DNA of 64,000 nucleotides from a virus (Duplodnaviria; Caudoviricetes), in IMG/VR virus record IMGVR_UViG_2895427314_000002, positions 27,646-91,645 of that record; one strand, 5' to 3'. Within the stretch, counting starts at the first letter, position 1, and each line of letters begins with the position of its first letter. The position numbers and the translations under genes are program-made. Below the pieces are notes generated by a model. It searched no databases. It saw only the letters and a list, made by a program, of their open reading frames with translations, and had not been told where the DNA came from. Of this stretch, positions 15,051 through 51,537 are shown piece after piece.

Positions 15051-15485
15051 TCACTTGAGGATGATCTTATCGACCTTGTTGTTCCAGTCGGCCAGGTTGC
15101 TCAGATACTTCACATCGCCGAGATCCGGGATGAGCTGACCAGCGGGGACGGGCAGCGTGACATCGGGAACGACTCCGCTCCGGGAATCGACCAGAGTCAC
15201 GCTGGCGTTACGCCTGTTCCAGACGCTGCTGATCCGATCCCGCCAGCCGACGCCGCCCAGTTCCATGGTCCCGGCCGACTTGCGTGAATACCTGTCGCCT
15301 TGGCGGTTGGGATACTCCCAGACGCAGAGCCATCCGGGGGTGCACTCGCTCAAGTCGGCCACGACGACCACCCCGGACGTCTGGGGGGTTGGGCCCGTGA
15401 CTGCTTCGGCGGTGGCCGGTGTGGTCAGCATGGCGGCACCGGCCACGGCGGTAAGCAGGGCGGTTGTGTAGCGCTTGAATCGCAC
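15051..15485 (-). CDS. secreted peptidase-inhibitor I36 / beta-gamma-crystallin-like protein
   Basis: Signal peptide; CTPGWLCVWE..N..G and DRISSVWN motifs; GAGGAG RBS. Confidence 0.8.
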   Translation of the reverse strand: MRFKRYTTALLTAVAGAAMLTTPATAEAVTGPTPQTSGVVVVADLSECTPGWLCVWEYPNRQGDRYSRKSAGTMELGGVGWRDRISSVWNRRNASVTLVDSRSGVVPDVTLPVPAGQLIPDLGDVKYLSNLADWNNKVDKIILK

Positions 15486-15696
15486 GGTACTTCTCCTCTT
15501 GTCGTTTTCGCATTGGCTCATGAGGCCTGCGCCGGAGCTTGTCTCAGCTCCGTGTTGGGCTTTCGGTGAATGAGAGTGATTCGACATCTCCCTGTGTGAT
15601 GGGGAGTGGTGGAATGTGACTCATGCCACTTCCGGCCCGGCGGTTGAGCAGGAGCAACATTGCGATGGACCCGTCGCGTGTGCTCGCAGAGGTGGA

Positions 15697-15975
15697 GTGG
15701 CGGCGGGGGCGTTCCTCGACCAGTACGAGCTGACCGTCCGGCTGAGGGACGAGGCCGCCGCCCGCATCCGTGCCGCTGGCGACCGCCCGGATGGCGGCGA
15801 CCTGACGAGGTGGGAGCAGGCGCACGACGAGGTGGCGGTGATGAAGCCGATCGTGCGGGAGATGGCCGCCCCGTACGTGAGGTTGCCGGGGTTGCCCGTG
15901 GCCGCCGCCGTGGCGCGCCCGGAGACGCTTCAGCGGGAAATCAGTGAGCGTGGCCAGTACGACGAGAGCGCGTAA
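15697..15975 (+). CDS. hypothetical protein
   Basis: ORF with GAGGTGGA RBS. Confidence 0.6.
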   Translation: MAAGAFLDQYELTVRLRDEAAARIRAAGDRPDGGDLTRWEQAHDEVAVMKPIVREMAAPYVRLPGLPVAAAVARPETLQREISERGQYDESA

Positions 15976-16050
15976 CCAACGTCTGACCTGCGTGTTTGTG
16001 AGGTTTCGGTGCGTGCCGCTCACGTGCGCCGCGCTTCGGCTACGCTGACG

Positions 16051-16231
16051 GCAGGCTTACCGCGTGCCTGCCTCCGAGCTGATCTCGCCTACGCCGAGAC
16101 ACAGCACCGACGAGGCGAAGGTCCCCGTGGATCGCGTACCCCGCTCGCCCTCGACGCTGCGTACGCGGCGGCCGGTGCTCGTGTCTTCGAGGTGGGGTGC
16201 GTAGGACCGCCACCTGGAAGGACACCCCCCC
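16051..16231 (+). ncRNA. candidate structured cis-regulatory RNA leader
   Basis: Nested complementary stems (see findings); TACGCT -10-like box at 16040-16045. Confidence 0.55.
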
Positions 16232-16923
16232 ATGACCCGCAACGCCGCCTGGAAGAACCGTGTCCGCGCCTACGCGGCCGAGAACGGCCTTTCGTACCAG
16301 CAGGCCCACGCCGCGCTCACAGCCCAGGCCCCCGCCGGCGCGGGCTTCACTGCCAACTCTGCCGAGTGGACGCAGGTCGGCGCAGGCCGCTACCTCATCG
16401 AGTTCGGCGACCACGGGCTCGGCGGCCACGAGATCGAGCCGTTCCACCTCGACATCACCGCACCGACGACCTGCGCGAGCAGCTCGGCGCGTTCGCGATG
16501 GGCCGGAGCTGGTTCGGGTTCTACATCGAGCTGGACGGTCTGGCCGGGAGGTTTCGGCTGGACGTCGAGCCCGGCAACGCGGACCTGCTCGGGACGTTCA
16601 CGCTCCGGCTCGACCCCGCCGACGAGGACGTGGTCGAGCTGCCCCGCTCGTTCTCTCACGACATGCACGAGCTGATCGACGCCGTGCAGAGCCGCTTCGA
16701 CTGCACCGTGGACGCCTTCACGTTCGTGCGTGGTGCCCGCGGTGGCGACGTCGAGTACGTGGGCCTCATCTACCGGGCAGGGACGGAGATGTTCCACCTG
16801 CTCCACATCGCGGACCACGACGGCGGCTGGCAGTACACGCTGTCCGGCGGGTGGCCGCTCGCCCGCGACGAGGAGGCCGTCGAGGCGTTCCAGGCGAAGA
16901 TCGCCGAGCACATCCACGCCTGA
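16232..16923 (+). pseudogene. frameshifted hypothetical gene (shift near 16460)
   Basis: N-half MTRNAAWKNRVRAY...HLDIT continues in another frame as TDDLREQLGAF...AEHIHA. Confidence 0.65.
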
Positions 16924-16937
16924 CCCCGGACATGAAC

Positions 16938-16971
16938 AGAGGCCCGCCGCGCTGAGCTCGCGACGGGCCTC
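16938..16971. terminator. bidirectional hairpin between convergent genes
   Basis: AGAGGCCCG...CGGGCCTCT. Confidence 0.6.
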
Positions 16972-16983
16972 TGAAGTGCGGGT

Positions 16984-17532
16984 CTACTCGACGGAGTGCA
17001 CGACCTCCGCGACGGGGCCGGCGGGCCGGAGCACGGCCTCGACGGCCTCCGGCGTCACGGAGGTCCCGTACTCGTCCGTCAGGATCTGGCTGATGGCGGC
17101 CGGGGTCCGTGAGGAGTCGTCACCGTAGGCGTCCAGGATCAGCTCGCAGGTGGTGTCGTCCAGGGCGGCGGCGGCCTCGTGGTCGGGCGTGACGGTGGAC
17201 TCGACCGGGTGGTCGTTGTGGCTGTGGTCGTTGTGCCCGGTCATGGTGGTGCTCCTCAGGACCTGCTCAGCGCCAGCCTTGACATCGGAGAGATCGTCGA
17301 GCGCGTGTCCGGCCTGCTCGATGGCGGCGGACAGCAGCACCGAGGTCACCGCCCCGGGCGTCACCTCCTCGTCGTCGGTGTCCAGCGTCTCGGCGATCTG
17401 GTCCGGGGTGAGAGTCGGGTCGGCCGCGGCCGTCTCGACGATGAGCTTGCGGGTCTCGTCGGACAGCGCGGCGGCGGCCTCGGGGTCGGAGTGGCCGATC
17501 GGGTCCGGCGTGTGATCGTTACGTGCGGACAT
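16984..17532 (-). CDS. acidic protein with an internally duplicated ~55-aa domain
   Basis: EAAAAL.D.T..LI...D...TP..I...L......VTP.AV..VL occurs twice; GAAAGG RBS. Confidence 0.75.
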   Translation of the reverse strand: MSARNDHTPDPIGHSDPEAAAALSDETRKLIVETAAADPTLTPDQIAETLDTDDEEVTPGAVTSVLLSAAIEQAGHALDDLSDVKAGAEQVLRSTTMTGHNDHSHNDHPVESTVTPDHEAAAALDDTTCELILDAYGDDSSRTPAAISQILTDEYGTSVTPEAVEAVLRPAGPVAEVVHSVE

Positions 17533-18645: not shown

Positions 18646-18870
18646 ATGGAGATCCGACCGCGCGTCCGCATCGTCGGCGCCGAACGCCACCAGCTCGCTC
18701 AGCACCTGGCCAGCCGCTACCAGGCGGGGGAATCCGTCCGCGCGCTCTCCCTCGCGATCGGCCGATCGTACGGGTTCGTCCACACGCTGCTGGAGGAGGC
18801 GAGCGTCGAGCTGCGCCACCGCGGCGGCAACCAGCGCAGCCGGCCCGCGGCGGCCGGGGCAGCGAAGTGA
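18646..18870 (+). CDS. small actinobacterial HTH protein
   Basis: YQAGESVRALS..IGRSYGFVH.LL.EA.V.LR.RGG. Confidence 0.85.
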   Translation: MEIRPRVRIVGAERHQLAQHLASRYQAGESVRALSLAIGRSYGFVHTLLEEASVELRHRGGNQRSRPAAAGAAK

Positions 18871-35125: not shown

Positions 35126-35632
35126 GTGGCCGACGACAAGCGGAAGCTCGAACTCGCCCAGCGCCGCAACCAGGCGCTCCAGATGCGGATCGCCGGCGTC
35201 TCGCCCACGCTGATCGCTGAGCGGCTGGGGTACAACAGCCCGCAGGCTGCGTCCGGGGACATCACTGCCGCGCTGAAGCGGGCCGCGAAGGTGGAGGGGC
35301 TCGCCGCCGAGCATCTGCTGCATCTGGAGTTGTCCCGGCTGGATAGGATGCTGGCCGCGCTGTGGCCGAAGGTGCTCAAGGGCGAGGTACAGGCGGCGGA
35401 AGTCTGCCACAAAATCATTAAGACCCGGGCGTCGCTGACCGGCGTGTCCGAGCTGAACCGCCACGGTGCCCCGGACAACGACATGGCGTCGCTGCTCGGC
35501 GCGATGCTGGCCCAGCTCCAGCAGCGTTACCAGGTGCCCGACCCGGACCTTGACGCCATCGCCTCGGCCGACGTGCAGGCCGACGTTGTCACGGGCGAAG
35601 TGCTGTGGGACGACGCCGGCGGCGAGGCATGA
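35126..35632 (+). CDS. terS: terminase small subunit
   Basis: N-terminal HTH (IAERLGY), ELSRLD, directly upstream of terL. Confidence 0.8.
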   Translation: MADDKRKLELAQRRNQALQMRIAGVSPTLIAERLGYNSPQAASGDITAALKRAAKVEGLAAEHLLHLELSRLDRMLAALWPKVLKGEVQAAEVCHKIIKTRASLTGVSELNRHGAPDNDMASLLGAMLAQLQQRYQVPDPDLDAIASADVQADVVTGEVLWDDAGGEA

Positions 35633-36921
35633 CCGAGGCGCTCGGGCTGGCGGTGCGGCTGTCGCCCAAGCAGGAACGGTCGATCGCCGAATCGACGGCA
35701 CGCCTGAACATCTGGCAGGGGGCTATCCGAAGCGGGAAGACGATCGCTTCGCTGCTGCGCTGGCTGGCGTTCGTCGCGAACGCGCCGCGCGGCGGATCCC
35801 TTATCGTCGTCGGCAAGACCGCCGACACGATCAGCCGGAATATCTTCGACCCGCTCATGGACGCAGCGATCACAGGGCCGCTCGCGGCGCGGATCTCCTA
35901 CACCAGGGGTGCCCCCACGGCGACGATCCTGGGCCGCAAGGTGGAGATCATCTCATGCGCGGACGCCCGCGCCGAGACCCGGCTGCGCGGCATGACCGGC
36001 GTCGGCGCGTACGTGGATGAGATCACGCTGATTGAGCGGCCGTTCTGGGACATGCTCCTGTCGAGGTTGAGCGTGCCGGGCGCGAAACTCTTCGGGAGCA
36101 CGAACCCCGACAGCCCTTCCCACTGGCTGAAGCGCGACTTCCTCGACCGGGCCGGCGAGCTCGACCTGCGGTCGTGGCACTTCAGGTTGGACGACAACCA
36201 CGCCCTGGACGCCGCGTACGTGGCCGCGCTCAAGAAGGAGTACACCGGGCTCTGGTACAAGAGATTCGTCCTCGGGGCGTGGGTGATGGCCGAGGGCGCG
36301 ATCTTCGACATGTGGGACGAAGACCGCCACATGGTCACCAGCCTGCCACTGATGGAGAAGTGGCTCGCGCTCGGCATCGACTACGGCACCGCTAATCCGT
36401 TCGACGCCGTGCTCGTCGGCGTGTCCGTCCCCGACGCCCACGGCCAGCGGCGCATCTACGTCACCAACGAGTGGCGGTGGGACTCCCGCCAGCAGCGCCG
36501 CCAGCTCACCGACGCCGAGTACAGCGTGCGGCTGGCCGACTGGCTCGACGCCATCCCCGACACCTACGGCCCCGGCACGCGCGGGGTCCGACCGGCGTGG
36601 CTGATCGTGGACCCCAGCGCGGCCTCGTTCGTGACCCAGCTCCACCACGACGGGTTCCGCCCCCAGCAGGGCGACAACTCCGTCCTGGACGGGATCAGGA
36701 CCGTGTCCAACCTGATGGCTGCCGACCACCTCCGCGTCCACGCCTCCTGCCGCGACCTGCTGGACGAGATCGTCGGCTACGCCTGGGACGACAAGAAGGC
36801 CGCCGCGGGCGAGGACGCCCCCGTCAAGGAGCACGACCACTCCGTGGACGCCCTCCGGTACGCCCTCCACACCACGCAGGCGGTGTGGATGCGGCTGCTC
36901 GAACCCGTGCCTGCCTATTAG
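35629..36921 (+). CDS. terL: terminase large subunit (PBSX-like)
   Basis: GAIRSGKT, YVDE, STNPD, GIDYG, DHSVDALRY. Confidence 0.96.
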   Translation: MTEALGLAVRLSPKQERSIAESTARLNIWQGAIRSGKTIASLLRWLAFVANAPRGGSLIVVGKTADTISRNIFDPLMDAAITGPLAARISYTRGAPTATILGRKVEIISCADARAETRLRGMTGVGAYVDEITLIERPFWDMLLSRLSVPGAKLFGSTNPDSPSHWLKRDFLDRAGELDLRSWHFRLDDNHALDAAYVAALKKEYTGLWYKRFVLGAWVMAEGAIFDMWDEDRHMVTSLPLMEKWLALGIDYGTANPFDAVLVGVSVPDAHGQRRIYVTNEWRWDSRQQRRQLTDAEYSVRLADWLDAIPDTYGPGTRGVRPAWLIVDPSAASFVTQLHHDGFRPQQGDNSVLDGIRTVSNLMAADHLRVHASCRDLLDEIVGYAWDDKKAAAGEDAPVKEHDHSVDALRYALHTTQAVWMRLLEPVPAY

Positions 36922-40141: not shown

Positions 40142-41716
40142 ATGCCGCTTCCGGTTAATGATCAGGAGTGGCCGCCGCCGCATCTCAAGCGCGAGATGCG
40201 GCTGTACCGCGAGTGGGGTGCCTGGTACGCGGGCGACCCGGACGAGTTGGCCGACGTGTACGGCTCGACGGGGATGATGCACGGCATCGGCCTGGACCCC
40301 AAGGGCTGGGACCGGCCGTCCAAGGGGTTCACCGGATGGATCCAGCGCGCCGCCCGCTGGTTCTGGGGTGCACCCGTCCCGCTCGGGCAGGTCCGCTCCA
40401 CGAAGCTGCACGTTCCGATCGCCGGGGACATCTCCGCGACCAGCGCGGACTTGTTGTTCTCGGAGCCGCCCACGCTGAGGATCGCCGGGAAGAAGTCGCA
40501 GGCCCGCCTCGACCGCGTCATGCGCGACGCGGGCATCTACGGTTCGCTGCTGGAAGCGGCCGAGATCGGCTCCGCGTACGGTGGTGCCTACCTGCGGGCC
40601 GGGTGGGATACGGAGATGTACGACCACCCGGTCATGAGCGTGCTGCCGCCGGATGCCGCCGTGCCGGAGTTCAGGTACGGCAGGTTGAGCGCCGTCACGT
40701 TCTGGCGGGTGCTCGCCGAAGACGGCGACCGGCAGGTGTGGCGGCACCTGGAACGCCACGAGAAGGGCAGAGTGCTGCATGGCCTGTACCTGGGCACGCC
40801 GGATCGGCTCGGCCACCAGGTGCCGCTGGCTGACCACCCGGAAACCGAGATCTACGCCGACGAGGTGGACGAGGATGGCGGGTTCGACTCACGGTTTCCG
40901 CGCGGTCTGCTGGTGTCGTACATCCCGAACATGCGCCCCCACCGGCTGATCAGGGGCACCAGCCTGGGCCGGTCCGACTACCAGGGCGTCGAGCACCTGA
41001 TGGACGCCCTGGATGAGGTGTGGACGAGCTTCATGCGCGACTTCCGAATCGGGAAGGGCCGCGTGATCGTCCCAGACATCTTCCTCGACTCACTCGGGCG
41101 CGGCCAGGGCGCGGCGTGGGATCCGGACCGGGAAATCTACGCGGGACTCGGCATGCTGCCGCCGCCTGGCGCCCAGGCCAACTCCATGCTGACGATCACG
41201 CAGTTCGCCATCCGGGTGAAGGAGCACGTGGATGGCGGGAAGGCGCTCGCCGCGCAGATCCTGCGCGGCGCCGGATACTCGGCGCAGTCGTTCGGCGAGT
41301 CGGACGGGTCCGGGCAGCAGATCACCGCGACCGAGGTCCACGCACGCGAGCGTAAGAGCTTTTCCACGCGCGGACGGAAGACCGGGTACTGGAATCCCAC
41401 CCTGCAATGGACACCGGACGTGCTGCTGTCCATCGACCGCGAGGTGTTCGGGCGGAAGGTCAGCGCGGACAAGGTCGAGGTGCACTGGCCGGACGGCGTC
41501 CAGCCCGATCCCGAAGCTCTCGGCCGCACCGTGGAGCTGTTCAACCGGGCACAGGCCATGAGCGTGGAGACGAAGATCCGCACCGTGCACCCGGAGTGGG
41601 ACGACGACCAAGTGCGCGAGGAGACGCACCGGTTGCGTGACGAACTCGGCCTCAACGTGCCCGACCCGGACCGGCTCGACGACGTGCTCGTGCCCAGCGC
41701 CGCCGGCGACGAGTAG
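40142..41716 (+). CDS. portal protein (SPP1/A118-like)
   Basis: 524 aa; SADLLFSE, GRSDY...LMDALDE, TATEV. Confidence 0.93.
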   Translation: MPLPVNDQEWPPPHLKREMRLYREWGAWYAGDPDELADVYGSTGMMHGIGLDPKGWDRPSKGFTGWIQRAARWFWGAPVPLGQVRSTKLHVPIAGDISATSADLLFSEPPTLRIAGKKSQARLDRVMRDAGIYGSLLEAAEIGSAYGGAYLRAGWDTEMYDHPVMSVLPPDAAVPEFRYGRLSAVTFWRVLAEDGDRQVWRHLERHEKGRVLHGLYLGTPDRLGHQVPLADHPETEIYADEVDEDGGFDSRFPRGLLVSYIPNMRPHRLIRGTSLGRSDYQGVEHLMDALDEVWTSFMRDFRIGKGRVIVPDIFLDSLGRGQGAAWDPDREIYAGLGMLPPPGAQANSMLTITQFAIRVKEHVDGGKALAAQILRGAGYSAQSFGESDGSGQQITATEVHARERKSFSTRGRKTGYWNPTLQWTPDVLLSIDREVFGRKVSADKVEVHWPDGVQPDPEALGRTVELFNRAQAMSVETKIRTVHPEWDDDQVREETHRLRDELGLNVPDPDRLDDVLVPSAAGDE

Positions 41717-44805: not shown

Positions 44806-45744
44806 ATGCCGAACACGTTTCTCACGCCGTCGATCATCGCCCGGCAGGCGCTGGCGAACCTCTACGAAACCACGGTCATGAGCCAGCTCGTGCACCGTGA
44901 CTATGAGGAGGAGTTCGTCAACCGGATCGGCGACACGATCACGATCCGCAAGCCCGCGATCTTCGAGGCGACCCAGTTCAACCGCACCACGGGCATCGTC
45001 ATCCAGAACGCGACGGAGGGATCGATCCCGATCACCCTCGACAAGTTCGTTGACGTCAGCTTCGCGGTGACGTCCGAGGAGTTGACCTTGGACATCATCG
45101 ACTTCAACGCCCAGCTCCTCGCCCCCGCGGTCGAGGCGATCGCGCAGCGGATCGACCGCGACATCCTGACCCTGCGCAGCGACATCGTCCAGCGCACCGG
45201 GGTCGCCGGCTCCACGGTGACCGGCGTGACCGGCACCAACGAGTGGGCCTGGGACAACCCGCGCGTCGTCATCGACGCGCGCCGGGTGCTCAACCAGAGG
45301 AACGTGCCGCCGACCGATCGGAACGTGGTGGTGGGGCCGGAGATCGAGGCGCAGTGGCTCGGCGACCCGCTGTTCCACCAGGCCGACACGAGAGGCGACA
45401 CGGAGGGTCTCCGCGAGGCCAACCTCGGCAGGCGCATCTTCGGTCACGACGGCTACCAGACGCAGAACATCAAGGGCCCGACCGGCACGCCGGCGTCCGG
45501 TCAGCCGAACACGGAGATCGGCGTCGCGTTTCATAAGACGGCGTTCGCCCTCGTGACCAGGCCCTTGGTTCTGCCGCAGGGCGCGGCCAACGCTCACGTC
45601 GAGAGCTACAAGGGGTTCGCGCTCAGGGTGGTCATGGGCTACGACCAGACCAAAAAGCAGGACGTCGTGAGCATCGACACGCTCTATGACGTCAAGACGT
45701 TGGACCCGAACAGGGCCGTGTTGATCCACGGAGTTGCGGCCTGA
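44806..45744 (+). CDS. major capsid protein (P22 coat-like)
   Basis: MPNTFLTP.IIA, GDTITIRKP, AFHKTAFALVTRPL..P, D.LY.VKTLDP. Confidence 0.93.
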   Translation: MPNTFLTPSIIARQALANLYETTVMSQLVHRDYEEEFVNRIGDTITIRKPAIFEATQFNRTTGIVIQNATEGSIPITLDKFVDVSFAVTSEELTLDIIDFNAQLLAPAVEAIAQRIDRDILTLRSDIVQRTGVAGSTVTGVTGTNEWAWDNPRVVIDARRVLNQRNVPPTDRNVVVGPEIEAQWLGDPLFHQADTRGDTEGLREANLGRRIFGHDGYQTQNIKGPTGTPASGQPNTEIGVAFHKTAFALVTRPLVLPQGAANAHVESYKGFALRVVMGYDQTKKQDVVSIDTLYDVKTLDPNRAVLIHGVAA

Positions 45745-49290: not shown

Positions 49291-51537
49291 GTGGCCGTCG
49301 TGAACGTCGGCGAACTGTTCGCCAGGCTGCGGCTCCGCGACCACCTCACCAACGCGCTCGGCCGCGCCCTCAACTTCTTCAAGTCGAAGGCGAAGGAGTT
49401 CGCCTCCCACGCCGGATCCATCGCGTCCGGCAGCGCCCAGATGGGCACGCGGCTCGCCGCCCTGTCGGTGGCCGGAGCGTCGGCCGCCGCCGGTCTGGCG
49501 TCGGCCGCGCAGGGCGGCGTCGCCCTGGTCGCCGCGCTCGCCCCGGCCATCGGGATCGTCGCGGCGCTGCCGGGGGCCATCGCGCTCTCCCGCGCCGCGA
49601 TGATCACACTCCAGGTCGCGCTGTCCGGCGTGCAGGAGGCCTTCAAGGCCGCGCTCGCCGACGACCCGGCCAAGTTCGCCAAGGCGCTGGAAGGCCTGTC
49701 ACCGGCGGCCCGCGCCGCCGCGATGGAGCTGCGGCTGGCCAAGCCCGCCATCGACGCCTTGCGCTCGTCGGTGCAGGATGCGTTCTTCGCGCCGCTCGCC
49801 GGCCACATCACCGCCGTGGCGTCGGCTCTGTCGGGGCCGCTCACGTCCGGCATGTCCGGGGCGGCCTCCCAGATGGGGCTGGCGGCGGTGGAGGCGGCCC
49901 GGTTCGCCGCTTCCGCGCAGACGTCGGCCGCCGTCACGTCGATCTTCGGTGCGCTGCGGTCGGCGGTCGCCGCGATCCAGCCCGCGATCGTGCCGCTGCT
50001 GGCCGGTTTCCGGGATCTGGCCGTCGTCGGCGCGGGCTTCTCGGCCGGGCTCGTTCCCGGCATCGCCGCGGCGGCGGCCCGGTTCGGCCAGTTCCTGTCG
50101 AACGCTGCCGCCTCCGGGCAGGCGCTCGCGTGGATGCAGGGCGCCGTCGCCGTGTTCCGGCAGCTCGCCAGCATCGCCGGAGACGTGATCGGGATCTTGC
50201 GCGGGGTCTTCTCCGCGATGCAGACCGGCGGCACCGGAGCGCTCGGCGTGGTCGGGCAGCTTCTCGGCCAGGTGAACGCGTTCGTCAACAGCGCGCAGGG
50301 CCAGCAGATCCTCGTCACGATCTTCCAGTCGCTGTCGCAGGTCGGAGGGGCCCTCTTCCCGATCTTCACCGCGCTGGCCGGGTCACTGGCGCTGGTGGCG
50401 CCGCACGTCGCGGCCATCGCGGTCGCCCTGGGGCCGGGGCTGGCCGCCGCCGTGGGTGCGCTCGGGCCTGCGCTGGCGGCGCTCGGTCCTGGGCTGACCG
50501 TGGTGGCGCAGATGCTCTCGGCGGCCTTCGCCAATCCGCTCCTTCAGGCGGGGCTGCTTGCGCTCGGTCAAGGGATCTCGGCTGTGCTGACGGCGGCGGC
50601 TCCGCTGCTGCCGGTGATCGGGCAGCTCGCCGGGATCTTGGGCCAGATCCTGGGCGCCGCGCTGGCCAATCTGTCGGCCGTACTCGGGCCCGTGATTTCT
50701 GCCCTTTCGTCCAGTTTGCAGCCTATTCTTCCGGTTTTGTCTCAGGCGGTCACCGAGCTGGCGGCGGCCACGGCCCCGCTCGCGGCGGCTTACGGGCAGC
50801 TCCTGGCCCAAGCCCTGAAAATGATCTTGCCGCCGTTGCTGCAGCTCGCCCAGAGCTTGCTGCCGCCGATCCTCGACCTGGTCAAGGCCATGATCCCGCT
50901 GGTGACGTCGTGGGTCGGCGAACTGTCCAAGATCCTCGGCGTCATTCAGCCGATCATCCCACCACTGGTGCAGATCGGGACGGCGCTACTGCCCGTCTGG
51001 ATCAAGATCATCACCGCCGTGGTCAAGCTGCTGCAAGGCGACTTCCGGGGCGCCCTCCAATCGATCATGTCGGCCATCAAGGGCTTCGGCGACACGATCA
51101 CGAACGCCGGAAAAGCCCTCATGGAAGGGCTCTGGAACGGCATCGTCGCCGCCGGAAACCAGATCAAATCCCGCATCGTCGGCTTCCTCCGCTCCATCCT
51201 CCCGCAGCCCGTCCTCGACTTCCTCGGCATCGCCAGCCCCAGCAAGCTGTTCGCCTGGATGGGCCGCCAGGTCCCCGCCGGGCTCGCGCTCGGCATCACC
51301 CGCGGCGGCGGCCTCGTCCGCGCCGCCGTCCAGCGCATGGCCGGGATCGTCGCCGGCGCGGGCATCCCCGACGTGCCCATGCCCGGCCTCGCCGTCCCCG
51401 GCGGCGGCGCGGCGGGAGGGCTCGGCGGCACGGCACGGACGGTGATCCACCAGACGAACTACTACCCGCAGGCCGAACCGACCTCGACGTCCGTCAACCG
51501 CGGGCTCCAGCTCGCGGGCGCACTGGGGGTGATCTGA
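49291..51537 (+). CDS. tape measure protein
   Basis: 748 aa Ala/Leu/Gly-rich helical repeats; LGIASPSKLF. Confidence 0.92.
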   Translation: MAVVNVGELFARLRLRDHLTNALGRALNFFKSKAKEFASHAGSIASGSAQMGTRLAALSVAGASAAAGLASAAQGGVALVAALAPAIGIVAALPGAIALSRAAMITLQVALSGVQEAFKAALADDPAKFAKALEGLSPAARAAAMELRLAKPAIDALRSSVQDAFFAPLAGHITAVASALSGPLTSGMSGAASQMGLAAVEAARFAASAQTSAAVTSIFGALRSAVAAIQPAIVPLLAGFRDLAVVGAGFSAGLVPGIAAAAARFGQFLSNAAASGQALAWMQGAVAVFRQLASIAGDVIGILRGVFSAMQTGGTGALGVVGQLLGQVNAFVNSAQGQQILVTIFQSLSQVGGALFPIFTALAGSLALVAPHVAAIAVALGPGLAAAVGALGPALAALGPGLTVVAQMLSAAFANPLLQAGLLALGQGISAVLTAAAPLLPVIGQLAGILGQILGAALANLSAVLGPVISALSSSLQPILPVLSQAVTELAAATAPLAAAYGQLLAQALKMILPPLLQLAQSLLPPILDLVKAMIPLVTSWVGELSKILGVIQPIIPPLVQIGTALLPVWIKIITAVVKLLQGDFRGALQSIMSAIKGFGDTITNAGKALMEGLWNGIVAAGNQIKSRIVGFLRSILPQPVLDFLGIASPSKLFAWMGRQVPAGLALGITRGGGLVRAAVQRMAGIVAGAGIPDVPMPGLAVPGGGAAGGLGGTARTVIHQTNYYPQAEPTSTSVNRGLQLAGALGVI

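What the first reader, a model, noticed from the sequence alone, without database searches (positions are those of the whole stretch)
16051..16231. Multi-stem, possibly switchable RNA leader upstream of an MTRNAAWKNRVRAY...GLSYQQA gene
Seen nested pairings: CCTACGC(16088-94)/GCGTAGG(16199-205), GAGACAC(16096-102)/GTGTCTT(16181-87), AGCACCG(16103-09)/CGGTGCT(16173-79), CGAGGCGA(16111-18)/TCGCCCTCG(16145-53), plus hairpins at 16155-70 and 16051-72. An alternative AGGTGG(16190-95)/CCACCT(16210-15) stem abuts the RBS GGAAGGA and competes with the outer stem. The downstream protein starts with a short basic two-helix module. Inference: an autoregulatory RNA/protein pair or riboswitch-like element controlling an accessory gene.
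Basis: partly seen in the sequence, partly recalled or inferred. Interest (0 to 1): 0.7.

Follow-up and report, generated by a model that had tools for sequence, protein, structure and literature searches.

The report
New structured mRNA leader of Actinomycetes

Summary
Window 16041-16234 holds a predicted promoter and a folded 5' leader for the provirus gene that starts at 16232. Single-sequence folding is not significant (z -1.3 to -1.5). Comparison with about 50 related leaders is decisive. On 34 aligned leaders, 92.6% of cells pair, against 40-49% in slid controls. 27 of 39 pairs show compensatory changes, and 0 of 500 shuffles reach the observed values.

The supported fold is:
- hairpin P0;
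- a long hairpin P1-P2-P3;
- hairpin C1;
- a variable hairpin Pc;
- a 3' hairpin Pd whose lower stem carries the Shine-Dalgarno sequence.

Two tertiary contacts join these. The P0 loop pairs with the segment just after C1.

No Rfam 15 family matches, and no paper was found. The leader sits in front of ORFs that start with one fixed N-terminal two-helix module. That module is fused to unrelated domains such as DUF4287/SRPBCC, BtrH_N, CN_hydrolase, APH and Clp_N.

I think the leader is most likely a translational operator answering to that module. A riboswitch is the main rival. Neither binding nor a ligand has been shown.

The parts
16041..16046 (+). -10-like hexamer TACGCT (predicted promoter; start of transcription inferred at about 16052-16054)
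   Evidence: A TANNNT hexamer lies 2-14 nt upstream of P0 in 26 of 32 leaders. The sigma-70 consensus scan found nothing here, and no RNA-seq run was listed. This part is therefore inferred.
16050..16072 (+). P0 hairpin: GGCAGGC 16050-56, loop 16057-65, GCCTGCC 16066-72. The family-wide core is AGGC/GCCT. The last 3 bases overlap P1.
   Evidence: A hairpin ends at model positions 3-7 in 31 of 32 leaders. Its stems differ widely, for example GGCC/GGCC, GGCGG/CCGCC, CGGCU/AGCCG and UGGCUG/CAGCCA.
16070..16116 (+). P1: GCCTC 16070-74 with GAGGC 16112-16, plus CG 16075-76 with CG 16108-09. P1 closes the P2-P3 hairpin.
   Evidence: 90% of cells pair and 3 of 5 pairs covary. A base pair is deleted on both strands in L062. 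U-A changes to C-G in class-wide members (CCUCC/GGAGG against CCCCC/GGGGG).
16078..16105 (+). P2: GCTG 16078-81 with CAGC 16102-05
   Evidence: 93% of cells pair and 2 of 4 pairs covary (GC, CG and UA types). The window and L010 carry GCUG/CAGC where the others have GCGC/GCGC.
16083..16099 (+). P3 hairpin: TCTC 16083-86, loop L3 GCCTACGCC 16087-95, GAGA 16096-99
   Evidence: 97% of cells pair and 4 of 4 pairs covary. At least three unrelated stem versions surround the same loop.
16088..16094 (+). Kissing partner 1: CCTACGC in the P3 loop
   Evidence: It pairs with 16199-205 in 99% of cells, and this helix was not part of the search model. Variants are listed under the partner at 16199-16205.
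16120..16133 (+). C1 hairpin: GGTCC 16120-24, loop CCGT, GGATC 16129-33
   Evidence: 98% of cells pair and 4 of 5 pairs covary. Loop length varies from 3 to 6 nt. L067 has one extra pair and L072 one fewer, changed on both strands.
16134..16138 (+). Segment GCGTA just 3' of C1: partner of the P0 loop (second tertiary contact, PK2). In this window it is only 4-5 pairs with a bulge or wobbles.
   Evidence: Complementarity between the P0 loop and this segment exceeds all 2000 permutations across members. Clear cases are UCACGC:GCGUGA, UCCCGU:GCGGGG, GAACGUU:AGCGUUC, GUGU:ACAC and CGUGC:GCACG. It is weak in the window's own subgroup.
16155..16170 (+). Pc hairpin (CGCTGC / GTAC / GCGGCG) inside the variable region 16143-16180
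   Evidence: A hairpin sits here in all 8 close relatives with different stem sequences. The region cannot be aligned in distant members, so support is local only.
16181..16188 (+). Pyrimidine-rich strand GTGTCTTC that pairs with the Shine-Dalgarno region (lower stem of Pd)
   Evidence: All 6 lower-stem pairs show compensatory changes, and about 75% of cells pair. The window's duplex energy is -8.8 kcal/mol.
16190..16215 (+). Pd upper stem AGGTGG 16190-95 with CCACCT 16210-15; 14-nt loop 16196-16209
   Evidence: 5 of the 6 upper-stem pairs have both-side changes, for example GGGCGG/CCGCCC, GGCUG/CAGCC and GGGCU/AGCCC.
16199..16205 (+). Kissing partner 2: GCGTAGG in the Pd loop
   Evidence: An exact complement of the P3-loop 7-mer lies 26-45 nt before the start codon. 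Counts are 11/11 for CCTACGC, 12/15 for CCCACGC, 3/4 for CCCACGT and 7/8 for CTCACGC. The CCCCAGC/GCTGGGG class was read by eye in 8 loci.
16216..16222 (+). Shine-Dalgarno sequence GGAAGGA, 9 nt before the ATG
   Evidence: Read directly from the sequence. It is invariant in the 8 close relatives and forms the 3' strand of the lower Pd stem.
16232..16327 (+). Codons 1-32: N-terminal two-helix basic module (MTRNAAWKNRVRAYAAENGLSYQQAHAALTAQ)
   Evidence: The profiles A6 and A10 were built from it. It always starts at Met1, with Tyr at residue 22 and no indel in 30 sequences. AlphaFold2 predicts two helices, residues 5-18 and 22-35. No Pfam, NCBIfam or PDB relative was found.
16232..16923 (+). Downstream gene (about 230 aa in relatives). 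Here it is broken by a 1-base frameshift near 16460-16465, moving from frame 2 to frame 1.
   Evidence: Translations are. The family occurs only in Nonomuraea.

Best explanation
Window 16041-16234 is the promoter-proximal 5' untranslated leader of the provirus gene at 16232. It belongs to a previously uncatalogued family of 170-200-nt structured mRNA leaders of Actinomycetes.

The RNA folds into P0, a long P1-P2-P3 hairpin, C1, a variable insert (Pc) and a 3' hairpin Pd whose lower stem contains the Shine-Dalgarno sequence. Two tertiary contacts tie the ends together. One is a 7-bp kiss between the P3 loop and the Pd loop. The other pairs the P0 loop with the segment just after C1.

This much is shown by covariation, and I put it at about 0.9.

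The following is inferred. The compact fold holds the ribosome-binding site in a helix, so the leader acts as a translational operator. Its effector is the 30-residue basic two-helix module that begins every protein encoded behind such a leader. That module would act from the gene's own product, from paralogues, or from free-standing module-only peptides, and would stabilise the closed fold (autogenous or family-wide feedback). I put this effector part at about 0.35-0.4.

In this provirus a host-type leader-plus-module cassette drives an accessory gene, which is frameshifted in this copy.
For: Structure:
- On A9 (34 leaders), 92.6% of cells pair against 40-49% in slid controls. 27 of 39 pairs have compensatory changes, and 0 of 500 shuffles reach the observed values.
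- The same picture holds on A7 and A8.
- The kissing helix was not in the search model, yet it pairs in 99% of cells and exists in five complementary versions.
- C1 changes by whole base pairs.
- P0 and the P0-loop contact are supported.
- G-U pairs, and an unstable fold of the opposite strand, mark the + strand as the RNA.

The leader is under selection. Against the most divergent homologue it is 77-84% identical. Codon third positions are 62-67% identical and first and second positions 69-76%.

Position: the Shine-Dalgarno sequence is the 3' strand of the lower Pd stem. A -10-like hexamer lies upstream of P0 in 26 of 32 leaders. No intrinsic terminator is present.

Link to the module:
- RNA-only models find leaders that end at start codons of module ORFs with unrelated C-termini.
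- The peptide profile finds genes across the class, and 17 of the 27 examined give a model hit at E<0.1; reading by eye brings this to 26 of 27.
- The leader subtype follows the module subtype and not the C-terminal domain. L072 differs in both from L081 and L088, although all three share the same Cys-rich C-terminus.
- The module is basic, is predicted to be helical, and keeps a fixed register from Met1.
Against: - No binding data exist.
- The module resembles no known RNA- or DNA-binding family.
- At least two module genes lack a recognisable leader: L057 and the Streptomyces example L273.
- Several paralogous leader-module genes occur per genome. G001 has five. Feedback would therefore be shared among unrelated enzymes, which is unusual.
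- The predicted probability that the Shine-Dalgarno 6-mer is unpaired is 0.36, the same as with a shuffled 5' part (0.35). Thermodynamics alone shows no special occlusion.
- Co-occurrence could reflect simple physical linkage of two adjacent elements.
- Two tertiary contacts and many invariant unpaired bases are also what a riboswitch aptamer looks like.
Confidence: 0.42

Rival explanations
1. It is an orphan riboswitch. The P0-P3/C1/Pd core with its two tertiary contacts would be an aptamer for a small molecule or ion. Ligand binding would fix or release the helix that holds the Shine-Dalgarno sequence. The N-terminal module would be unrelated to sensing.
For: - The size (about 190 nt), two long-range contacts and blocks of invariant unpaired bases (CGAG, CGAC, AAGG and the bases flanking the kiss) are typical of aptamers.
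- There are several copies per genome.
- Downstream domains include small-molecule-handling families: APH, SRPBCC/AHSA1 with DUF4287, CN_hydrolase and BtrH_N. One cluster member is annotated as a glyoxalase.
Against: - The controlled genes share no pathway, transporter or biosynthetic theme.
- The near one-to-one coupling with one N-terminal peptide module is left unexplained.
- One copy controls a provirus accessory gene.
- No Rfam aptamer matches.
Confidence: 0.25
2. The leader answers to another trans-acting factor, such as a global RNA-binding protein, an sRNA, an RNase or temperature. The module is merely its neighbour. Leader plus first 30 codons would travel together as a recombination cassette onto which different C-terminal domains are swapped.
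For: - The leader subtype tracks the module subtype whatever the C-terminus, as expected for linked inheritance.
- Pro/Ala-rich linkers follow the module.
- The same kissing sequences recur in many paralogues, which would suit one common factor.
Against: - Linkage alone does not explain why both parts are kept together across several orders while everything downstream is exchanged.
- The tertiary complexity is far beyond known RNA thermometers.
- No candidate factor has been identified.
Confidence: 0.17
3. It is a co-translational device. The first 30 or so residues would act as a nascent peptide on the translating ribosome, through pausing or exit-tunnel sensing. The leader, whose P1 5' strand mimics the 16S anti-Shine-Dalgarno sequence, would re-fold in response and so set the rate of re-initiation.
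For: - The module always starts at Met1, with no indel in 30 sequences. Its length is about that of the exit tunnel.
- The 5' strand of P1 reads (A)ACCUCC in most class-wide members and pairs with an internal GGAGG. CCUCC is the anti-Shine-Dalgarno core of 16S rRNA, which is established knowledge.
Against: - The module is predicted to fold as a two-helix unit and stays on the mature proteins.
- Known arrest peptides sit in separate upstream ORFs, which is established knowledge.
- The conserved residues are spread over the whole module rather than clustered at a stall site.
Confidence: 0.08
4. It is not an RNA element at all. The complementarity would be chance in G+C-rich DNA, or a DNA-level site such as an operator, an attachment site or an origin.
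For: - The single-sequence fold is not significant (z -1.3 to -1.5).
- Direct repeats of GGCTAYCG lie near the predicted promoter.
Against: - Compensatory changes occur in 27 of 39 pairs, and 0 of 500 shuffles reach the observed values.
- Strand-specific G-U pairs are present.
- Whole base pairs are inserted or deleted.
- The element ends at the start codon in dozens of unrelated loci.
- No tRNA or attachment-site-like feature is present.
Confidence: 0.03

Closest known systems
Autogenous translational operators in mRNA leaders (ribosomal-protein leaders such as rpsO/S15 and L20; phage T4 gene 32 and regA operators)
   Same: A structured 5' leader includes the ribosome-binding site. Pseudoknot or long-range pairing holds it closed. 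The idea that the encoded protein binds its own leader matches the strict pairing of this leader with one protein module.
   Different: The proteins are not ribosomal or replication proteins. Only a 30-residue N-terminal module is shared, and it is fused to unrelated enzymes. Several paralogous pairs occur per genome. Binding has not been shown, and no Rfam leader family matches.
Riboswitches whose aptamer is closed by loop-loop or pseudoknot contacts and whose 3' helix carries the Shine-Dalgarno sequence (ZTP/pfl, guanidine-II, SAM-II, preQ1-II; loop-loop kiss of purine riboswitches)
   Same: The size, strong covariation, invariant junction bases, a kissing contact that bridges 5' and 3' parts, and a ribosome-binding site in the last helix are all shared.
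   Different: No sequence or structure match to any Rfam aptamer was found. The only ZTP hit lies elsewhere in locus L267. The downstream genes have no common metabolic theme. No ligand is known. The coupling to a peptide module has no riboswitch precedent that I know of.
Orphan actinobacterial RNA motifs in Rfam (for example msiK, ydaO/yuaA, 6C, raiA, Actino-pnp)
   Same: They are G+C-rich structured motifs restricted to Actinobacteria, and some lie in 5' leaders.
   Different: None scores on this element even at E up to 10, or on 25 further loci. The architecture and the gene association differ.
RNA thermometers (ROSE, fourU)
   Same: The Shine-Dalgarno sequence is base-paired in a 3' hairpin.
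   Different: Thermometers are short, simple hairpins. This element has at least six helices and two covarying tertiary contacts. No Rfam thermometer matches.

Membership tests
Any Rfam 15 family (4227 covariance models) | A covariance-model score at or above the family's gathering score | tested here: not met
   There were 0 matches in the whole window at gathering scores. There were 0 matches in 15950-16300 even at E up to 10. Nothing overlapped the element in 25 further loci carrying it.
Riboswitch | A conserved, structured aptamer supported by covariation | tested here: met
   27 of 39 pairs show compensatory change, 92.6% of cells pair, and there are two tertiary contacts.
Riboswitch | Selective binding of a small molecule that changes the RNA fold | not testable with these tools
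   This needs in-line probing, SHAPE or ITC.
Riboswitch | Controlled genes share a pathway, transporter or ligand-related function | tested here: not met
   The C-terminal domains are unrelated: DUF4287+AHSA1, BtrH_N+DUF4872, CN_hydrolase, APH, Clp_N, Cys-rich domains and phage-specific domains. A loose theme of small-molecule handling cannot be excluded.
Autogenous translational operator | The operator structure includes or abuts the ribosome-binding site of the regulated gene | tested here: met
   The Shine-Dalgarno sequence (16216-22) is the 3' strand of the lower Pd stem. All six of those pairs covary, although only about 75% of cells pair.
Autogenous translational operator | The regulated gene encodes a protein that binds the operator RNA | not testable with these tools
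   Only co-occurrence is shown: 17 of 27 loci give a model hit at E<0.1, and 26 of 27 carry the leader by my own reading. The module has no detectable relative among known nucleic-acid-binding families.
Transcription attenuator | An intrinsic terminator hairpin with a U-tract between leader and gene | tested here: not met
   There are 0 terminator-like sites in 15400-17200, and no U-run follows Pd.
Protein family of the downstream gene (about 230-aa Nonomuraea proteins P0003-P0008) | Full-length alignment to the 223-233-aa homologues in one open frame | tested here: not met
   Both halves align at 56-84% identity. The window copy needs a frame change near 16460-65, so it is a broken copy or carries a sequencing error.

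The most novel reading that the evidence does not exclude
The leader and the first 30 codons form a portable RNA-peptide regulatory cassette. The N-terminal module of the nascent or finished protein would recognise the folded leader of its own (and its paralogues') mRNA. Any enzyme, including a phage accessory protein, that acquires the cassette by domain swapping would then join one post-transcriptional feedback circuit. Free-standing module-only peptides, such as the 41-aa ORF behind the L091 leader, would act as its master regulators.
Probability: 0.3. Interest if true: 0.9.

Novelty: new variant of a known kind. Interest (0 to 1): 0.8.

Why it matters
Large structured RNA families with two covarying tertiary contacts are rare finds. 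This one has escaped Rfam although it occurs in several orders of Actinomycetes (Streptosporangiales, Frankiales, Jiangellales and Motilibacter). These bacteria matter for antibiotics and for nitrogen fixation.

Its strict pairing with a short, uncharacterised N-terminal peptide module is unusual. That module is fused to many different enzymes, among them phosphotransferases, SRPBCC proteins, hydrolases and Clp_N proteins. The pairing gives both orphans a testable function. Either it is a new kind of modular autoregulation, or it is a new riboswitch class with a regulon of unknown purpose.

The finding also shows a temperate phage placing an accessory gene under a host-type post-transcriptional control element. 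The five natural versions of the kissing pair are ready-made compensatory mutants for experiments.

Tried and rejected
- **Single-sequence folding as evidence.** The z-scores of -1.3 and -1.5 are not significant.
- **RNAalifold on MAFFT alignments of the close relatives.** It gave a muddled consensus with no covariation, because the variable parts were misaligned. A hand-segmented alignment fixed this.
- **P1a (GCCU 16066-69 with AGGU 16119-22).** I dropped it. It conflicts with C1, which has compensatory indels, and U4 is G in L067.
- **Alternative helix GCGUACCCC (16134-42) with GGGGUGCGU (16195-203).** It makes 9 pairs in all close relatives but is not kept in L062 and more distant members. 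It may still be a local alternative conformer.
- **Possible anti-anti-SD pairing.** The P3 3' strand (AGGGAC or GAGAC) pairs with GUCUU in 6-8 of 8 close relatives (first five pairs). I did not follow this in distant members, so it is left open as a possible switch.
- **Metagenome pattern scan.** All 9 hits were false and lay inside coding genes.
- **Three pattern scans of viral contigs, the two larger ones screened with the model.** Apart from the Nonomuraea wenchangensis record already in hand, no true hit was found.
- **blastn-type search of 401 family genomes with the leader.** It returned only noise apart from G001.
- **RNA-seq.** No RNA holder was listed.
- **Structure of the 230-aa protein.** The AlphaFold2 model has pLDDT 63.5 and pTM 0.38. 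Foldseek against the PDB found nothing at E<=0.001.
- **ESM Atlas on the module.** No usable hit.
- **Word-based homologue search on residues 1-40.** It was too insensitive.
- **Thermodynamic accessibility of the Shine-Dalgarno sequence.** There was no difference from shuffled controls.
- **Literature.** Four searches found no description of the RNA or of the peptide module.
- **Earlier findings of this scan.** Nothing was found.
- **uORF reading of the leader (46-aa GTG ORF at 16064-16204).** Rejected. Relatives differ by 1-2-nt indels, and conservation shows no 3-base periodicity.
Full report
**What is at the site.** The window is high-G+C actinomycete DNA. It lies in an IMG/VR provirus record of 91,645 bases that is estimated to be 93% complete. 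PHROG searches find a terminase at 35605-36921, a portal at 40142-41716, a major head protein at 44806-45744 and a tape measure at 49291-51537.

The finding lies in the 256-base gap between a 119-aa ORF that ends at 15975 and an ORF that starts at 16232. That ORF reads MTRNAAWKNRVRAY...YQQA. It changes frame near 16460-65. The two halves together align with 223-233-aa proteins found only in Nonomuraea. Neither half has a Pfam or NCBIfam family.

**The observation itself.** That fold is not better than shuffled sequence, with z of -1.32 and -1.50. From this one sequence, nothing could be concluded.

**Close relatives.** I fetched seven further distinct loci that carry the 230-aa homologue. The 200 bases upstream of their start codons are strikingly conserved, while the DNA further upstream and the upstream genes differ.

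Against the most divergent homologue the leader is 77-84% identical. Codon third positions are 62-67% identical, and first and second positions 69-76%. Conservation comes in invariant blocks separated by variable stretches. It shows no three-base periodicity, and 1-2-base indels occur, so this is not a small ORF.

Two leaders (the window and L010) carry a different stem around the same 9-base loop. They have GCUG/CAGC and UCUC/GAGA where the others have GCGC/GCGC and CCCU/AGGG. That gave the first compensatory evidence.

**Widening the family.** A covariance model of the eight leaders (R1) found diverged copies in other Nonomuraea genomes. Two rounds of rebuilding followed (R2, R3). They raised this to 15 of 110 Nonomuraea genomes and 10 of 151 sampled genomes of the order.

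Only one extra weak hit appeared in an even sample of 151 genomes of the class under strict filters. That sample includes G001 itself.

A profile of the N-terminal peptide module (A10) finds it in 33 of 301 sampled genomes of the class. This tally includes two unpublished genomes, G543 and G552. No sequence from them was used in any analysis here.

I examined 27 of those loci with filters off. 17 gave a model hit at E<0.1, and most of those hits end at the start codon. A regex and reading by eye found the same elements in diverged form upstream of 13 more loci that gave no hit or only a partial or misplaced one. Only the Streptomyces example, L273, lacks them. That makes 26 of 27 loci by my own reading; no single script scored this.

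The organisms named by the protein records are Nonomuraea, Streptosporangium, Planomonospora, Jiangella, Frankia, Pseudofrankia, Parafrankia, Motilibacter and Streptomyces.

**The supported structure, in window coordinates.**

| Element | Coordinates |
|---|---|
| P0 | 16050-56 with 16066-72 |
| P1 | 16070-74 with 16112-16, plus 16075-76 with 16108-09 |
| P2 | 16078-81 with 16102-05 |
| P3 | 16083-86 with 16096-99, around loop 16087-95 |
| C1 | 16120-24 with 16129-33 |
| Pc (variable) | 16155-70 |
| Pd, upper stem | 16190-95 with 16210-15 |
| Pd, lower stem | GUGUCUUC 16181-88 with the Shine-Dalgarno region 16216-25 |

On the 34-sequence alignment, 92.6% of cells form standard pairs. When the partners are slid by 1-3 columns the figure is 40-49%. 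27 of 39 pairs have changes on both sides, and none of 500 shuffles reaches any observed measure. The 11- and 23-sequence alignments give the same picture.

These alignments were fitted to the model, which favours its helices. One is the kissing helix. The other is C1, which also gains a pair in L067 and loses one in L072, on both strands. P1 loses one whole pair in L062.

**The tertiary contacts.** It pairs in 99% of cells.

Five versions exist. In four of them the exact complement is found 26-45 bases before the start codon:
- CCTACGC/GCGTAGG in 11 of 11;
- CCCACGC/GCGTGGG in 12 of 15;
- CCCACGT/ACGTGGG in 3 of 4;
- CTCACGC/GCGTGAG in 7 of 8.

The fifth version, CCCCAGC/GCTGGGG, was read by eye in eight Frankia-type and Motilibacter-type loci.

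A second contact pairs the P0 loop with the bases just after C1. Examples are UCACGC:GCGUGA, UCCCGU:GCGGGG, GAACGUU:AGCGUUC, GUGU:ACAC and CGUGC:GCACG. The observed complementarity exceeds all 2000 permutations of loops among members. In the window's own subgroup this contact is weak.

**What is not supported.** The first five pairs of the first stem are kept, in 6-8 of 8 sequences. This may mark an alternative pairing of the P3 3' strand with the pyrimidine strand that otherwise covers the Shine-Dalgarno sequence. I did not test this in distant members.

The predicted probability that the Shine-Dalgarno 6-mer is unpaired is 0.36. It is 0.35 when the 5' part is shuffled. Occlusion of the ribosome-binding site therefore rests on covariation of the lower Pd stem, not on thermodynamics.

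**Where transcription starts.** No RNA-seq run was listed, and the sigma-70 consensus scan found nothing. A TANNNT hexamer, the actinobacterial -10 pattern, lies 2-14 bases upstream of P0 in 26 of 32 leaders. In the window it is TACGCT at 16041-46. This places the whole fold in the 5' UTR, by inference only. No intrinsic terminator is present, so control is more likely to act on translation than on transcription.

**The protein link.** The ORFs behind the leaders start with one module, MT.N..(F/W/R)K..(V/I)R.(R/Y).A..(T/H)G..Y..A...L. It always starts at Met1, has Tyr at residue 22, and shows no indel in 30 sequences. Codon third positions vary most. AlphaFold2 predicts two helices.

After a Pro/Ala-rich linker come unrelated domains:
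- the Nonomuraea 230-aa domain;
- Clp_N;
- a Cys-rich domain;
- proteins of about 500 aa;
- DUF4287 with AHSA1/SRPBCC;
- BtrH_N with DUF4872;
- CN_hydrolase;
- APH.

The module has no Pfam, NCBIfam or PDB relative.

The leader subtype follows the module subtype and not the C-terminal domain. Two module genes lack a recognisable leader, L057 and L273.

About nine of thirty Streptosporangiales copies, including the window's, have truncated or frameshifted ORFs.

**How it most likely works.** It is shown that this is a compact, conserved leader RNA whose last helix contains the ribosome-binding site. Loop-loop contacts tie that helix to the 5' domain.

It is inferred that the closed fold limits initiation and that something stabilises or opens it. 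I favour the shared N-terminal module as the effector. It is the only feature common to all controlled genes, it is basic and helical, and it is kept with the leader while everything else is exchanged.

A small-molecule riboswitch is the main rival. Simple linkage with an unknown trans factor, and a nascent-peptide device, are further rivals. The 5' strand of P1 reads (A)ACCUCC in most class-wide members and pairs with an internal GGAGG. This is an anti-SD/SD look-alike that could take part in a switch, but I could not establish that.

**Comparison with what is known.** No Rfam 15 family matches the window, the region at E up to 10, or 25 other loci. Four full-text searches found no description.

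The element works like ribosomal-protein and phage translational operators, or like pseudoknotted SD-sequestering riboswitches. It is a member of none of them.

**Verdict.** The element is a new family of structured leaders with an unusual, near-obligatory peptide partner.

Noticed in passing
window 16455-16470: The gene behind the leader changes reading frame here. HLDITA is read in frame 2 and DDLREQLG in frame 1, as if one base were missing relative to the homologues. There is no slippery heptamer. It is either a pseudogene or a sequencing error.
   Followed up: partly
L075, L078, L079, L083, L087, L090, L091, L097 (ORFs directly after the leader): About nine of thirty Streptosporangiales copies have ORFs cut to 14-62 codons, often just after the module. 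They may be decaying copies, toxic genes under counter-selection, or genuine module-only peptides such as the 41-aa ORF in L091.
   Followed up: partly
G079:C30:77822-77966 (+) and 89706-89850 (-) = L097, L090: Two nearly identical leader copies face each other about 12 kb apart on one contig. Both have truncated ORFs. They could be the ends of a mobile or duplicated segment.
   Followed up: no
L061 1501-1600 (-): This is a remnant of the leader (P0 to C1 only) fused to unrelated, lower-G+C DNA that encodes a small membrane protein. It marks a deletion or rearrangement scar.
   Followed up: partly
L057 2280-2840: A 376-aa Nonomuraea basaltis protein (P0012) starts with the module but has a quite different upstream region of lower G+C and no leader.
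   Followed up: yes
upstream of the -10-like hexamer in many members (for example window 16036-16040; L077, L076, L083, L090, L095): A conserved GTCGG box lies next to the -10-like hexamer in the window's subgroup and about 10 nt upstream of it in the other subgroup. It could be an operator or an unusual promoter element.
   Followed up: no
class-wide leaders, 130-160 nt before the start codon (L259, L263, L274, L278, L279 and others): The 5' strand of P1 reads (A)ACCUCC, and ACCUCCUU in L259. This is the same as the anti-Shine-Dalgarno end of 16S rRNA. It pairs with an internal GGAGG followed by CAAAGG.
   Followed up: partly
window 35605-58492: This is a complete siphovirus-type structural module: terminase, portal, head maturation and minor head protein, major head protein, tape measure and tail proteins. 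The record is a provirus estimated to be 93% complete.
   Followed up: yes
window 15051-15587 (-): A 178-aa ORF with a signal-like N-terminus and a Peptidase inhibitor I36 domain (E 5e-10) lies two ORFs upstream of the leader, on the opposite strand.
   Followed up: no
window 18646-18870 (+); L010 4594-4818; L014 5001-5228: A 74-aa HTH_58 protein is conserved a few genes downstream in the related proviruses. In L014 its neighbours include a Tad2-like (anti-Thoeris family) gene and a small Sigma70_r4 protein. This suggests an early or anti-defence region.
   Followed up: no
L267 2984-3066 (+): A ZMP/ZTP riboswitch (RF01750, 42.2 bits against a gathering score of 39) lies about 500 nt downstream of the end of the leader-controlled CN_hydrolase gene in a Pseudofrankia genome. 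It is unrelated to the leader.
   Followed up: no
L012 1081-2067 and L013 271-1257: In one related element the gene just upstream of the leader is an ATP-dependent DNA ligase. In other elements different genes are there. The leader-plus-gene unit therefore moves as a module.
   Followed up: no
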